The position numbers were made by a program. This document shows, in pieces, positions 10,101 to 21,210 of a stretch of 64,000 nucleotides of DNA. The stretch comes from Octopus vulgaris (taxonomy: Eukaryota): positions 63,550,001 through 63,614,000 of the forward strand of contig OX597819.1 of assembly GCA_951406725.2 (NCBI GenBank), read 5' to 3'. Each line of letters opens with the position of its first letter. The first letter of the stretch is position 1.

Positions 10101-11271
10101 CTGTATTAATGTGGAACTGGCCGTGTCTATTATGGGAAGAGAAGTGCGAAAATAAGTGCCGAGGACGCTTGGAAAATATTAGCCGAGTAATAGAGGGACA
10201 GAAATGATGGAAAGTAATCTCAGAAAAATTCATTCTCACAAACGAAAGGACAAACGAACACATAAAATGAGAAGTGTTCTGTTGAATGTTATATGTCCAA
10301 CAAATGAAAACACGCAAAAGCAGTATGAAAACGGACGAATTTAAGGATATTAAGGGGAGGAAAGAAGAGGCTCATTCGGCTGATTATTCTGAGATGTATC
10401 ATATATATGTAATCATGAATATTTCAAAGATACCACCTACCATCCTGAAAAAAAAACTACTTCAAATGTCAGTGTATATTTATATACATGACAAGAAACC
10501 GACGAACCCGAAGTTCGTGAACAGTAATTTTCGTATTGCCTCATGAGCCGAATAATTCTCAATTTACGGCTGCACGTATTTTTCAACAATTAGCCTGTAC
10601 AACTACCATTCTCTTTTAAAACATGAGTTTCCGATATGGAGTAGCGTTGCTCAATAATTCTGGCAAACCGGGCTAAAAAGATGATGATTACTTGTTAATT
10701 ATCATTAAAAGAATATAAAAGGATATTAGAATATACATTCCATTTGGACGGTCTCCATTTCTCACTATATCTCACTATCACACTTCCTCATCACTTCCTC
10801 CCTCCCTGCATTTCACTGTCAGCCGCACAGATATATACACGTACGTATACGCACATACGTGGAGCGCACAGATATGCATAAGTTGACTGTAGCAACGAAT
10901 TGAAGCATACAACTTTTGCATGGCATAGCACAAAAATCCACTCAGTCATTTTACCTGCACATTATCTCTATATAAAAGAAACCTTTCCTGCTGCTATTTA
11001 GAATGCAGTGTACATGTCTGCGTTTGGCACACGAGGATGACGGAGGTTAACAATGTTATGTCAGGCATAATATACGCTGTCAAAGATCTGAGTCCAGTTT
11101 TTCATGAAACAGTCAATCACCCTCTGACAGCATAATAGATACGTTTCTGTTGATTTACGTACCGTGCATGTTCCTTAATCTAATTTAACCCAATGGATAC
11201 AGACGATGACAAAATAATCCATCTATTCATATAAACGTGACTTTGTGAGTGTATAGACATACGTCCCTACG

Positions 11272-11333
<62 letters not shown>

Positions 11334-11567
11334 CCTATCTATCTATCTATCAACCATGAACCACAAATAAGCATATATATATATATGTATGTATGTATGT
11401 GTGTGTGTGTATGTATGTATTCACACACACATACGACATAGATACATACATACAGAGAACTGCAGATATATTTATATTTAGACATACATTTTTCAGCACA
11501 TGTATATGTGTCTATCCTTGTAACTCATTATGTGTATGCATGTGTGTGTATCTATACACACATGTAA

Positions 11568-11615
<48 letters not shown>

Positions 11616-16847: not shown

Positions 16848-16954
16848 AATAACAAAAACACCCTCCGAATCAGGACTGTCAATTTGCGTTGGCAAATAGA
16901 CATAACTCTCTCTCTTTCTCTCACTTTTCTCTCTCTCTCTCTTTCCCTCTCTCA

Positions 16955-17034
<80 letters not shown>

Positions 17035-20000
17035 ATATATATATATATATATACGCATATATATGTATATTAAATGAGTGATTCAGAAAGCGGAGTGTAA
17101 CTAGAACCTTTAATAGCACAACGATCGTTTCCGCTTCGTTTTGCACTGCTCCCTGGTGGGTGTGGAATGATGTAAAGACATCAGATGCAACACACAGTGC
17201 AGTTGAACACCATCAGGTGACGCAACATACATCAAAAGTTATCAGATTTATATTTCACTTTCGCTCCAGATTATATGCTGGTGGTGAGTTGCTAGCAGTT
17301 CAGACACATTTTGGTATAGTGAGGAAGTTGTGGTCAGGAAGTGCTTGATAAAAGAAATAAAGGAAATAAAAAGAATTTAATAAAAATGGAGAAATGGGGT
17401 GTTTATAAGTGTGCTGAAGAAGTGATTGTTAAGAAGAAATAAAACAAGAATAAAGGAATCTAATGTATAACAGTAGGGGTGCTTATGGCTTTGGACTGAA
17501 CAGATATAGCGTGTGGCTATGGCAGTCAAGCGCAACGGCGTGGTCAAGGATTTTGGTAGGGGTGGGATTCCGGTCTTTAGATGTGGTGGCTGCTTAAACC
17601 TACACACACAGAGGCATACATTCACCATATATATACACACATGTGTGTGCGTGCACGTATACATATACGCTCTCATGCTCTCACACACACGAACACACGC
17701 ACACACATATATTGTATATACACATACATTCGGGCACACATACCTCATTTTGTCAAGGCTCAGCCCGCATATATAGGCACACACTCGTTTACACCTGGAC
17801 ATACGCTCATTTATATGGGAACTCGCGCTATTCCACGTGTGTACATGTTCGCATCCATCTATATTTGCTTTTACACCGAAACATACACATATAAATACAC
17901 ACATGTGCATGCGCACTCACACATATACATACACACACATATCGCTGTTTTATCTATACACACTCACATAGTACACTCACACACATATACACACACATAT
18001 ATATATATATGCACGTGAACTAATATACATATACCCATATGCGTATATGTACACATACATATATGCGCATATACACATACACGTAGATACATAAACACTC
18101 GCCCTACACGTGAATGCACACACACGCGGATGCACATGAATACATATATATTTTTATAGCGTGCGTGGATATAAAAAAGCACGGATCTATACAGGGTACA
18201 TACGTACTTAGTTACAAGGATATAACTGTCCATACGTTCATATATGGCTATATACATAGATACAACTGTCAGTGTTTTCCTAGGCTGGGGGTTTTCATGC
18301 ATGCAAGTTATGACTGTGAAGGTGCTGAGCTGTCAGGATTGTAGTGGGTGAAGATTGCTTTCTTAGAGTGTATGCAATTCGTTCAGTTAATTTGTTAATT
18401 ACTCTTTCACGAGTTAGTAAAACTGACAACGGTTCTTCCGAGCACAGCCTATACCGCCTAGAAAAGGTGTTGTATGGCTGTGCGTGTGCCCAGGACAGTT
18501 CATAGTTGATTTTATTTTCAGTTGCCACAGAAACTCCACCAGTGATGTATGACTCTTGGTCATTTTTTAAGGCTTGGGATGTAGTTGCGGTATCGATTCT
18601 TGGATGAATCGGCCGTAGCACCTCTGTACACGTACATGCCTCCTCGTGTGTTCACTGTGCATTTATATATAAGGTTGCCAGTCATGCAGAGTTATCAATT
18701 GGGCGTCTTGATTTGTCCTTACACTAGTACCCATAGCTGGCTGTTGTAAATGACCAGTGGTTGTAATCAATTGGTCTCGGTCTCGTCGTTCTAGTTGCAT
18801 GTCGATTCGTGTTCACCGTGTTGTTGTTATACCGACTCCCTGGTTTACTTAGTATTTGGTTCTTATTATTTCCGTATTGGTCCGGGCTATGGATTTTCGT
18901 GCTTGTCCTGTGATGGGGCTTCGGTCGGGCGAGCATTATGTACAGGTTCATTAGCTGAAGATTGGTTGGGGATAGTTATTCTAGCCCTTGTTTACGTTCT
19001 TGTTGTTGATTCGGATCATGTGTTGTTGCATGTTCGAGGAGGGTTATGTAAGACATCTTCATGTTAAGCTTGTTAAATATGGAGTGGTATTAGTGTGATT
19101 TCGGGAAACATCCGTCCAATTCTGAAAGGAACTCTCTAGCAATCTTCGAAAAAACATTGGATGCGTGGATTTGGTTTAAACTAGAGGAGGATGTGGTTTT
19201 TGTATTTGGCGTTGTATTTATTATTCTGAGTGCGTTATGTTTGTTTGGTGTGATATATTTTGTTGTGTGTTGCTTTGTTTAGATAGGGTTTTTCGTAGCT
19301 AGACAGTTTAATGAAGCGTATTTCAAACGTTACCCAGTTTTGAACCTGAACTGTTTGTCAAGAATGCTCCTTCGTTGCTTTATAGCCCCATATTCGAAAC
19401 GATTATGCATTCAGTAGTTTACAGGAATATAAATTCTATGTATAACCATTACTTTAAACCTACGATTACCGGAATAAAAGAGAGTTGAACACAGCAGTGA
19501 ATATGAGATTATCAATAATATTACACAACTCTCATCGAAATATGTAATTTCGTTGCGCATAAATATGCATCGTAGTTCTAGAATGCGTATGCCGGATTCT
19601 ATTCCGCTTTTGTGTTTATATCAGTTGTATTAATACGATTAGGAAATGCGTGATGGCTCTGTGAGATAAAGAAAGCAGCAAACTTTTAGAAATAACCGAC
19701 GGAACTGTATTTAAGACTGAATAGCACAACAGAGTGTTTTGATGAAATGAAAACGAATGTAATCAAAACTCTCTCTTTAAATTCATGGCTTTACATGTGC
19801 GGAGAGTTTTAATAAAATGCTCCTCTAAAATGTTGCGAACAATTTAGGAATATTTTAACTTGATATGGCGGCGAGCTGGCAGAATCTTTAGCACGCCAGG
19901 AGAAATGATTAGCGGTATTTTGTCTGCCGTAACGTTCTGAGTTCACATTCCGACGAGGTCGACTTTACCTTTCTTCATTTCGGGGTCGATTAAATGAGTA

Positions 20001-21210
20001 CCAGTTACGCACTAGGATCAATGTCTGTCCCTGTTTGTCCCCTTTATGTAAACAGCAGGAGCAATACCGCTAAGCTTTTTGTTTAAGGCGTTAACGACTC
20101 TGTCAATTCGCCGCCTTTAGAAACCTGATAGAATGGCGAGTAAATTAGGTACAGGTTAGAGACTTCTATATTGAGAAAAAATACCCACAATTCACACAAT
20201 ACGAACGAGCAGAAAACAAAAATATCTAAGTTGGGAATGTTTGTTTTAAATCATTTCTAATTTAACATTTGCAGGAATAAAACGTTTAGGCAGATTAGTC
20301 TTCTTAGATAATATATTGGCTTTGTCAATAAATACACAAAATTCCTATTGGAACCGAACTGGACAACTAACGAATATGAATTAATCCTAAAACCACCCTC
20401 AGAATAATCAGCCGAATGAGCCTCTTCTTTCCTCCCCTTAATATCCTTAAATTCGTCCCTCTTATAGCACGCCGTGACAGTGAGTAAAACTGCTATTGAA
20501 GCAATAACTGTACCCCTTGAAATGCACAAAAGTCTGATCAGTAACCCCTCCTAAACAAACAAATATACAATAGAATCGATAACTTTAAAACTAGAACTAT
20601 TAGCCAGACCTAGGAAACCCGACATAATCTTGTTTTAATTGGCATATGGTATGAATTAAACGCAGAAAAAGGACAGTGTATTAGACGTCAGCAGATCATT
20701 TTACAGTTTCCCTAAAAGTATAGATTATTTAATGTAGATGGCTTAACCATTGGATATCTCAGCGTATAAAGGGATACTTAAAATAGAATGATAAATATTT
20801 GAACCACAGGCCACTCAGAAACGAATATTAAATAATATCCGTTGCATAGTGTTCTGTAGTAAATCCATATAACAGTAAATAAGAAGGATAGAAAAAAGTT
20901 CTAACAGGAAAATAGCTTCAAAGCCGGTATTTACAGTATACAAACCACGTCTGATATGGAGAATACGAAAGAAGAGAAATTGTCAAATTATATTTGAACA
21001 TTAAACGTGAGGGATGGAAATGGCATAGATATTGAATGATGCGTTAAGTCTGCTAGAATGTATTCTGTACGATGCATATAAAAGTGTGATTCACAAAACA
21101 AACTCATATCGAATCATATTCAGAAATTCCTTGACAAGAAACAATAATTAATATAGGAATGGAGCCAGAAAATATATCCAAAGAAGAAGACCAGGATATA
21201 GAGCAGAATA

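What the first reader, a model, noticed from the sequence alone, without database searches (positions are those of the whole stretch)
10333..20458. Exact 61-bp inverted repeat with copies 10 kb apart in unique sequence
Seen: 10333-10393 and 20398-20458 are perfect reverse complements with abrupt edges, unrelated flanks and no target-site duplication. I saw no third copy and no match to the window's repeat families. Inference: it could be TIRs or recombination sites bounding a 10.1-kb invertible or mobile segment, a long-range RNA duplex (ADAR editing-complementary sequence, splicing docking site or circRNA driver), a recent templated insertion, or an assembly artefact.
Basis: partly seen in the sequence, partly recalled or inferred. 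Interest (0 to 1): 0.78.

Follow-up and report, generated by a model that had tools for sequence, protein, structure and literature searches.

The report
Short inverted duplicate from DNA-break repair
Two perfect, oppositely oriented 61-base copies lie 10 kb apart in non-coding octopus DNA; they look like an ordinary scar of one recent DNA-break repair event, not a mobile element, switch or gene part.

Summary
Positions 10333-10393 (+) and 20398-20458 (-) are exact reverse complements. Their edges are abrupt and their flanks unrelated. There is no target-site duplication and no third copy in the window, even a diverged one; 100 shuffles gave 0 chance matches.

The window is Octopus vulgaris or a close relative. 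It is rich in transposable elements and microsatellites and has no recognisable host exon.

The 10,004-bp spacer encodes no transposase or recombinase, so a transposon or an invertible switch is unlikely. The minus-strand copy sits in an exon-like 97-codon ORF. That ORF has no homologue among 1.84 billion representative proteins, and ORFs of that length are common in this window. Neither copy has a poly(A) tail, and the 61-mer does not fold into a hairpin.

I read the pair as a neutral scar of one recent double-strand-break repair event. Two forms are about equally likely:
- a ~10-kb micro-inversion made by one staggered break, which leaves inverted duplicates at its ends (about 0.4);
- capture of a nearby 61-bp template at a break, a repair-mediated duplication (about 0.33).

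No eukaryotic genome collection was available. The genome-wide count, the orthologous loci, read support and RNA evidence all stayed unchecked. Interest is low.

The parts
10333..10393 (+). Left copy of the 61-bp repeat (reads GGACGAA...TTCTGAG on the + strand)
   Evidence: Flanks are unique in the window. No poly(A) or poly(T) and no direct repeat at its edges.
20398..20458 (-). Right copy, the exact reverse complement of the left copy
   Evidence: It lies inside the 97-codon stop-to-stop ORF 20260-20550(-), which has no homologue and no Pfam family.
10394..20397 (.). 10,004-bp spacer between the copies. Under the inversion reading this is the inverted segment; under the capture reading it is simply the DNA between donor and acceptor.
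   Evidence: It holds microsatellites, a 1.3-1.9-kb palindrome (11374-13301) and SINE copies at 14072-14249, 19863-20024 and 20051-20117. 55 of 56 ORFs of 45 aa or more overlapping 10333-20458 were scanned and 0 had a Pfam family at E<=0.001. No Rfam family and no tRNA.
20260..20550 (-). Exon-like ORF around the right copy: preceded by ...tttgtttag, contains a hydrophobic stretch followed by KR, and has GT one base after the repeat. I judge it a chance ORF.
   Evidence: Searches show the sequence; given 20 open codons, the chance of lying in an ORF of 97 codons or more in this window is 0.27. Searches found no real homologue.

Best explanation
The pair is a neutral scar of one recent double-strand-break repair event in non-coding octopus DNA. 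Taking the two repair routes together, I put this class at about 0.75. The route I commit to is a ~10-kb micro-inversion formed by the staggered-break mechanism. One breakpoint was cut with a 61-nt stagger (or at sites 61 bp apart on sister chromatids) and the other was cut roughly blunt. The overhangs were filled in, and the middle fragment was rejoined in reverse by end joining. Each end of the inverted segment then carries one copy of the 61 bp, in opposite orientation, flush with the junction, with no target-site duplication and with unrelated outer flanks. Shown: the anatomy, the perfect identity, the uniqueness within the window, and the lack of coding or mobile-element features. Inferred: the mechanism, that the event is recent, and that it has no function. 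In this reading the repeat is the consequence of the inversion, not a site that drives it.
For: The anatomy is what the model predicts: two inverted, exact copies with abrupt edges and no target-site duplication, in otherwise unique flanks, and no transposable element at either junction. There is no second duplicated block next to the copies, which fits one staggered and one blunt break. Ranz et al. 2007 (PMC1885836, passages read) report that 17 of 29 Drosophila inversions carry inverted duplications of non-repetitive sequence at their breakpoints; the shortest duplication is 46 bp and the median 321 bp, and in 12 inversions only one breakpoint region is duplicated. An inverted orientation is obligatory under this model, and a 10-kb span is unremarkable for a small inversion. 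By contrast, captured duplicates in humans lie mostly within 5 kb of the donor (824 of 1,136; only 58 lie more than 5 kb away on the same chromosome; PMC2671141). Identity of 61/61 bounds divergence at 4.8% or less (95%), while SINE copies in the window are 62-86% alike, so the event is younger than those insertions. Small microhomologies are possible at the novel junctions: GAG at 10393|10394 in one polarity of the model, GG at 10332|10333 in the other. I read these, and they are not statistically meaningful.
Against: Nothing in the window shows that the segment was ever in the other orientation. The SINE orientation test gave no verdict. All 8 SINE loci outside the segment share one orientation; inside it, 14072-14249 and 20051-20117 agree with them and 19863-20024 is opposite. 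A k-mer strand-asymmetry test had no power, because the flank blocks themselves scatter around zero. Capture of a 61-bp template gives the same final anatomy. The documented cases of the staggered-break model that I read are from flies, not molluscs. No outgroup, population or read data could be consulted.
Confidence: 0.4

Rival explanations
1. Repair-mediated duplication, also called templated or filler capture. A break at one of the two sites was repaired by synthesis-dependent strand annealing or template switching. A 3' end copied 61 nt from the other site 10 kb away, in the opposite orientation, and was then rejoined. The spacer was never inverted. One copy is the donor and the other a 61-bp insertion.
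For: The anatomy fits equally well. Pace et al. 2009 (PMC2671141; abstract, passages) describe over 1,000 germline insertions of 50 bp or more in the human genome. These duplicate nearby chromosomal DNA, lack poly(A), and show microhomology, filler or small deletions at the junctions. They include an exon copied in opposite orientation into an intron of its own gene. Neither copy here has a poly(A) or poly(T) tract or a target-site duplication. Inverted templated insertions are also the signature of MMBIR (PMC8421209, passages).
Against: A 10-kb distance is in the tail of the reported distribution: 824 of 1,136 lie within 5 kb and 58 lie more than 5 kb away on the same chromosome. At 61 bp it is also shorter than the proximal median of 147 bp. 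No microhomology is visible beyond the repeat at either junction, although microhomology would be hidden inside the 61 bp. Which copy is the donor cannot be told.
Confidence: 0.33
2. Both copies are fragments of a low-copy repeat or transposable-element family whose other members lie outside the window.
For: The genome-wide count could not be made. The window is very repeat-rich.
Against: There is no third copy in 64 kb, even a diverged one. Two fragments of a family would not be expected to share both end points exactly and to be 100% identical, when the window's SINE copies are 62-86% alike. The 97-aa ORF covering one copy has no relative among 1.84 billion representative proteins.
Confidence: 0.08
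3. Assembly or polishing artefact: one of the copies is not present in the animal's DNA.
For: It cannot be excluded without reads. One published assembly of this species was built from nanopore reads and polished with short reads (PMC10700109, passages). I cite that only as context; I do not know which assembly the window comes from.
Against: The window has no gap. Both copies sit in unique, complex sequence. I know of no assembly error mode that writes an isolated 61-bp inverted copy 10 kb away. The nearby palindrome's 47-nt spacer is ordinary element sequence, not adapter-like.
Confidence: 0.06
4. Functional long-range RNA duplex. Both arms lie in one transcript and pair into a perfect 61-bp double strand. 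This could be an ADAR substrate, a splicing or back-splicing aid, or a source of small RNAs.
For: A perfect duplex is predicted at -114.8 kcal/mol on either strand. The host is a cephalopod, a group known for heavy A-to-I editing (recalled; review titles only in the listing). Intronic complementary sequences at a distance are known in mammals (PMC3479170 and PMC7045468; listing and abstract starts only). The right copy has an exon-like setting.
Against: There is no evidence of transcription. The exon-like ORF has no homologue even though the database holds a predicted O. vulgaris protein. Its length is unremarkable here (P = 0.27). No Pfam-recognisable host exon was found among the 300 ORFs scanned. 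Perfect identity says the pair is young, not that it is conserved.
Confidence: 0.05
5. Terminal inverted repeats of a 10.1-kb DNA transposon, or sites of a site-specific invertase.
For: The copies are inverted and exact, and they bound a discrete segment.
Against: There is no target-site duplication (1 base shared). Of 56 ORFs over the segment, 55 were scanned and 0 had a transposase, integrase or recombinase family. The interior is made of old SINEs, microsatellites and a palindrome. There is no second element in the window.
Confidence: 0.02

Closest known systems
Inverted duplications at inversion breakpoints (staggered-break model; Ranz et al. 2007, PMC1885836)
   Same: Inverted copies of ancestrally unique, non-repetitive sequence sit flush with the two ends of a segment. 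There is no transposable element at the junctions. Duplication from only one breakpoint region is common, and the reported size range starts at 46 bp.
   Different: The reported cases are cytologically visible inversions in Drosophila, with duplicates averaging about 88% identity. Here the segment is only 10 kb, the copies are identical, the host is an octopus, and the inverted state itself is not shown.
[quoted passage not shown] 2009, PMC2671141)
   Same: An insertion-sized copy of 50 bp or more of nearby single-copy DNA on the same chromosome, without poly(A) or target-site duplication. Either orientation occurs, including an exon copied antisense into its own intron.
   Different: Most reported cases lie within 5 kb and have a median of 147 bp. 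This one is 10 kb away and 61 bp long. The empty site that defines the class could not be examined.
MMBIR or polymerase-theta templated insertions (PMC8421209)
   Same: An inverted copy of a nearby template is inserted at a repair junction.
   Different: The events described there have templates within 100 bp and visible microhomologies at both junctions. Here the template would be 10 kb away and no flanking microhomology is visible.
Exon plus editing-complementary-sequence duplexes used by ADAR
   Same: Two complementary stretches could pair within one pre-mRNA.
   Different: Known examples are conserved, imperfect duplexes in expressed genes. Here no gene, transcript, editing or conservation is shown.
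DNA transposons with terminal inverted repeats
   Same: Exact inverted repeats lie at the ends of a discrete segment.
   Different: There is no target-site duplication, no transposase, no other copy, and the interior is old junk DNA.

Membership tests
Inversion with breakpoint duplication (staggered breaks) | Inverted copies of non-repetitive sequence flush with both ends of the segment, with no transposable element at the junctions | tested here: met
Inversion with breakpoint duplication (staggered breaks) | The ancestral or outgroup arrangement has one copy and the segment in the opposite orientation | not testable with these tools
   No eukaryotic genome collection was available. The internal polarity tests (SINE orientation, k-mer asymmetry) gave no verdict.
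Repair-mediated duplication (captured proximal DNA) | A copy of 50 bp or more of nearby chromosomal DNA, without a poly(A) tail or target-site duplication | tested here: met
   61 bp, 10 kb apart on one contig; no A or T run of 5 or more and no direct repeat at the edges.
Repair-mediated duplication (captured proximal DNA) | An empty acceptor site in an orthologous or ancestral sequence | not testable with these tools
   No related genomes were available. Neither flank lies in a repeat with a second copy in the window that could serve as an empty-site proxy.
Repair-mediated duplication (captured proximal DNA) | Microhomology, filler or a small deletion at the junctions | tested here: inconclusive
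   No homology extends beyond the 61 bp. Microhomology inside the repeat cannot be seen without the ancestral state.
DNA transposon with terminal inverted repeats | A target-site duplication flanking the repeats | tested here: not met
   Outer flanks are ...GAAAAC and CTCTTA...; only 1 base is shared.
DNA transposon with terminal inverted repeats | A transposase inside the element, or further copies of the element | tested here: not met
   0 Pfam families in 55 of 56 ORFs over the segment. No other copy in the window. The genome-wide count was not testable.
Site-specific invertible segment | A recombinase gene in or next to the segment | tested here: not met
   Among the 300 ORFs scanned across the window, the only enzyme families are a reverse transcriptase and a mariner-type transposase, both 4 kb or more outside the segment. 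A separate scan of 12 ORFs adds a weak GIY-YIG match (E = 0.0016) in the same outside element.
ADAR exon/complementary-sequence duplex | One arm lies in an expressed and edited exon, and both arms lie in one transcript | not testable with these tools
   There are no RNA data. The only indirect test, coding homology of the exon-like ORF, was negative.
ADAR exon/complementary-sequence duplex | Pairing is conserved across species | not testable with these tools
   No related genomes were available.
Hairpin RNA gene (miRNA precursor or similar) | The unit itself folds into a stable hairpin or matches a known family | tested here: not met
   The 61-mer folds at only -5.9 kcal/mol and its complement at -1.9. 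No Rfam match at gathering score in the whole window.
Retrocopy of a processed transcript | A poly(A) tail and a target-site duplication at the copy | tested here: not met
   Neither feature is present at either copy.

The most novel reading that the evidence does not exclude
The right copy is part of a real, unannotated, lineage-specific exon. The left copy is then a freshly captured antisense fragment of it, lying 10 kb downstream in the same minus-strand pre-mRNA. That would be a newborn, perfect 61-bp editing-complementary sequence, and so an observed instance of how break repair creates new ADAR substrates or double-stranded RNA in a cephalopod gene.
Probability: 0.04. Interest if true: 0.6.

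Novelty: new member of a known kind. Interest (0 to 1): 0.2.

Why it matters
It matters little on its own. Short dispersed duplicates and breakpoint duplications are expected by-products of break repair. This pair would be one more example, in a genome where such small events have hardly been catalogued. It has modest value as a polarity marker: if sister-species alignment shows a 10-kb inversion, the duplicate identifies the derived arrangement and the break geometry. Only the unlikely reading, that the two arms pair in an expressed RNA, would bear on an open question, namely how cephalopod editing substrates arise.

Tried and rejected
1. Coding exon. The right copy sits in a 97-codon ORF with a good acceptor-like tract, a hydrophobic stretch and a nearby GT. 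I rejected this as evidence for four reasons. There was no hit among longer proteins. Among 1.84 billion representatives there was one hit (E = 4e-5, 26% identity), and it is a 300-aa internally repetitive protein matching the hydrophobic part. There was no Pfam family. ORFs of this length are common here: the probability is 0.27-0.34 given 20 open codons. My first analytic estimate, which made both ORFs look significant, was wrong because the window is heterogeneous.

2. Paralogous exons or a gene-conversion tract. No diverged homology extends beyond the 61 bp.

3. Retrocopy or complete 61-bp exon. There is no poly(A) and no target-site duplication. The GT lies one base beyond the repeat, and the left copy has A at that position.

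4. Host gene context. Pfam on 150 of 160 minus-strand ORFs found only transposable-element and zinc-finger-type matches. The 10 not sent lie at 58347-63483. Pfam on 150 of 172 plus-strand ORFs found none; the 22 shortest were not sent, and one of them (12020-12160) lies inside the segment.

5. Sequencing-adapter hairpin. I checked the 47-nt spacer of the nearby 442-nt palindrome by eye, and it is ordinary element sequence.

6. Vector, phage or plasmid origin of the 61-mer. No match in plasmids or phages.

7. Tests of inversion polarity. SINE orientation and 4-mer strand asymmetry with leave-one-out flank blocks were both uninformative.

8. Not done. The prokaryote-only genome collection was not scanned, because it cannot answer the copy-number question. 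Supplementary tables of the papers were not opened.
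Full report
**Observation**

Reading both places and comparing them by script shows that 10333-10393 on the + strand is identical, 61 of 61 bases, to the reverse complement of 20398-20458.

- Identity stops at once on both sides. The next 60 bases match at 16/60 and 12/60, which is background.
- A gapped blastn with 7-nt words between the two 4-kb neighbourhoods extends the match only to 66 bp with two mismatches. Apart from that it finds only SINE copies.
- Sub-words of 15 nt and longer occur nowhere else in the window. A short-query blastn finds nothing longer than 12-13 nt, and the best other 61-nt window reaches 34/61 identity.
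- With up to 3 mismatches there are 2 matches, and none in 100 dinucleotide-preserving shuffles.
- The outer flanks (...GAAAAC and CTCTTA...) share one base, so there is no target-site duplication.
- The window has no N.

**Setting**

The window is 35% G+C and full of TA, CA and TATC microsatellites and SINE-like arrays.

A 518-aa ORF at 26777-28330(-) carries reverse-transcriptase and GIY-YIG matches. It is 98% identical to a protein named 'Hypothetical predicted protein [Octopus vulgaris]'. The DNA is therefore from that species or a very close relative. I had first guessed this from recalled SINE sequence.

Pfam scans covered 150 of 160 minus-strand and 150 of 172 plus-strand ORFs of 45 aa or more. 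On the minus strand they found a reverse transcriptase, mariner-type transposase pieces, C2H2-type zinc-finger matches and one weak match to a domain of unknown function. On the plus strand they found nothing. No recognisable host exon turned up. Rfam and tRNA scans were empty.

Both copies lie in sequence that is otherwise unique in the window.

**What it is not**

- *Transposon or invertible switch.* This would need a target-site duplication and a transposase or recombinase. The duplication is absent. Of the 56 ORFs overlapping 10333-20458, 55 were scanned and none has a Pfam family (for the count). The interior is old SINE copies, microsatellites and a palindrome.
- *Retrocopy.* Neither copy has a poly(A) tract or a direct repeat.
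- *Hairpin RNA gene.* The 61-mer folds at only -5.9 kcal/mol.
- *Vector, plasmid or phage sequence.* It matches none.

**The exon lead**

The right copy lies in a 97-codon ORF (20260-20550, minus strand). The ORF begins right after ...tttgtttag, encodes a hydrophobic stretch followed by KR, and has a GT one base past the repeat. I took this seriously because an exon with an antisense copy downstream would be an ADAR-type duplex in a cephalopod. It did not hold up.

- There was no hit among longer proteins.
- In a full HMMER pass over 1.84 billion representatives there was one hit, an internally repetitive 300-aa protein at E = 4e-5 and 26% identity over the hydrophobic part. The word-indexed protein collection searched does hold a predicted O. 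vulgaris protein.
- Given 20 open codons, the chance of sitting in an ORF of 86 codons or more is 0.34, and of 97 or more is 0.27, in this window. So the ORFs around both copies carry no weight.

I built and searched no spliced or joined model.

**Mechanism**

The anatomy to explain is a young, exact, inverted, two-copy duplicate with flush edges, no target-site duplication and no mobile-element features. Identity of 61/61 bounds divergence at 4.8% or less. The window's SINE copies are 62-86% alike, so the event is comparatively recent. Two known products of double-strand-break repair give exactly this picture.

1. *Inversion by staggered breaks.* If one breakpoint is cut with a 61-nt stagger and the other bluntly, fill-in and reversed rejoining of the middle fragment give A-B-C'-B'-D, with B and B' at the ends of the inverted piece. 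Ranz et al. (PMC1885836, passages) found such inverted duplications of non-repetitive sequence at 17 of 29 Drosophila inversions. Lengths ran from 46 bp (median 321 bp), and in 12 inversions only one breakpoint region was duplicated.

2. *Repair-mediated duplication.* A broken end copies a nearby template and is rejoined. Pace et al. (PMC2671141, abstract and passages) catalogued over 1,000 such human insertions of 50 bp or more. Of 1,136, 824 lie within 5 kb of the donor and 58 lie more than 5 kb away on the same chromosome. The proximal median is 147 bp. One case is an exon copied antisense into its own intron. MMBIR-type insertions are likewise inverted but have been described with templates within 100 bp (PMC8421209, passages).

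I favour the inversion slightly (0.40 against 0.33). Inverted orientation is obligatory for it and 10 kb is an ordinary span, while 10 kb is in the tail for capture. This weighing rests on data from flies and primates, not octopus.

**Attempts to decide within the window**

- All 8 SINE loci outside the segment point the same way, which looked like a usable polarity marker. Inside the segment, one old copy (14072-14249) and a partial one (20051-20117) agree with the outside, and one (19863-20024) is opposite. That gives no verdict.
- A 4-mer strand-asymmetry score trained on flank blocks scatters around zero for the flanks themselves, so it has no power.
- Junction microhomologies of 2-3 bp can be read into either polarity of the inversion model, but they are not significant.

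**Remaining rivals**

- *Unseen repeat family (0.08).* This is disfavoured by the identical end points and the perfect identity.
- *Assembly or polishing artefact (0.06).* It cannot be excluded without reads. The window has no gaps, and the nearby palindrome's spacer is ordinary sequence.
- *Functional RNA duplex (0.05).* It is physically possible (-114.8 kcal/mol), but there is no evidence of a transcript.
- *Transposon or invertase sites (0.02).*

**What stayed unchecked**

No eukaryotic genome, read or RNA collection was available. I could not examine the genome-wide count of the 61-mer, orthologous loci, read support for both orientations, or editing and back-splice evidence. I opened no paper supplements; the duplication tables of Ranz et al. 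and Pace et al. might refine the size and distance comparison.

**Verdict**

The feature is real and non-random. It is most likely an ordinary, neutral repair scar, and a new example of a known kind. Interest is low unless transcript data show the two arms pairing in an expressed RNA.

Noticed in passing
window 11374-13301 (core 11860-12301 / 12349-12790): A large palindrome lies inside the spacer, about 1 kb from the left copy. It has 442-nt arms that are 99% complementary, with a 47-nt spacer. The self-inverted alignment extends to about 1.9 kb at 82%. It is built from a ~560-bp unit, part of which is also repeated directly (11587-11799 and 12147-12357, 94%). Such palindromes are break-prone, so it may be related to the repair event, but no link is shown.
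   Followed up: partly
window 26084-28536: A Penelope-like element: a 518-aa ORF with reverse-transcriptase and GIY-YIG matches (26777-28330, minus strand). It is 98% identical to a predicted O. vulgaris protein. It is bracketed by perfect inverted repeats of 297 nt (26084-26380 / 28240-28536) that continue for another 54 nt (26374-26427 / 28191-28244).
   Followed up: partly
window 1625-1780, 4496-5183, 8133-8652, 9198-9358, 34447-34826, 49871-49991, 52052-52234, 59495-59885: All 8 SINE-like loci outside the 10-kb segment have the same orientation, and several are short tandem arrays. This strong local orientation bias may mean the window lies inside a long transcribed intron. Inside the segment, 19863-20024 (opposite) and 20051-20117 (same) form a head-to-head pair.
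   Followed up: partly
window 24931-26118(-) and 869-948(+): A 396-aa reverse-transcriptase ORF (RVT_1, E = 2e-11). Exact inverted matches of 42 nt (907-948 / 24968-25009) and 28 nt (869-896 / 25020-25047) link it to a spot 24 kb away, presumably a second fragment of the same retroelement.
   Followed up: no
window 31565-32579(-): A mariner-type transposase remnant split over several frames, with Transposase_1 (E = 3e-19) and a Mos1-type HTH (E = 2e-6).
   Followed up: no
window 28560-29510; 47285-47560; 54001-56000: A (TA)n tract of about 0.9 kb brings G+C down to 0.18 for 28001-30000. There is a ~280-bp (AAT)n tract. A G+C-rich island (0.48) contains ORFs without a Pfam family.
   Followed up: no
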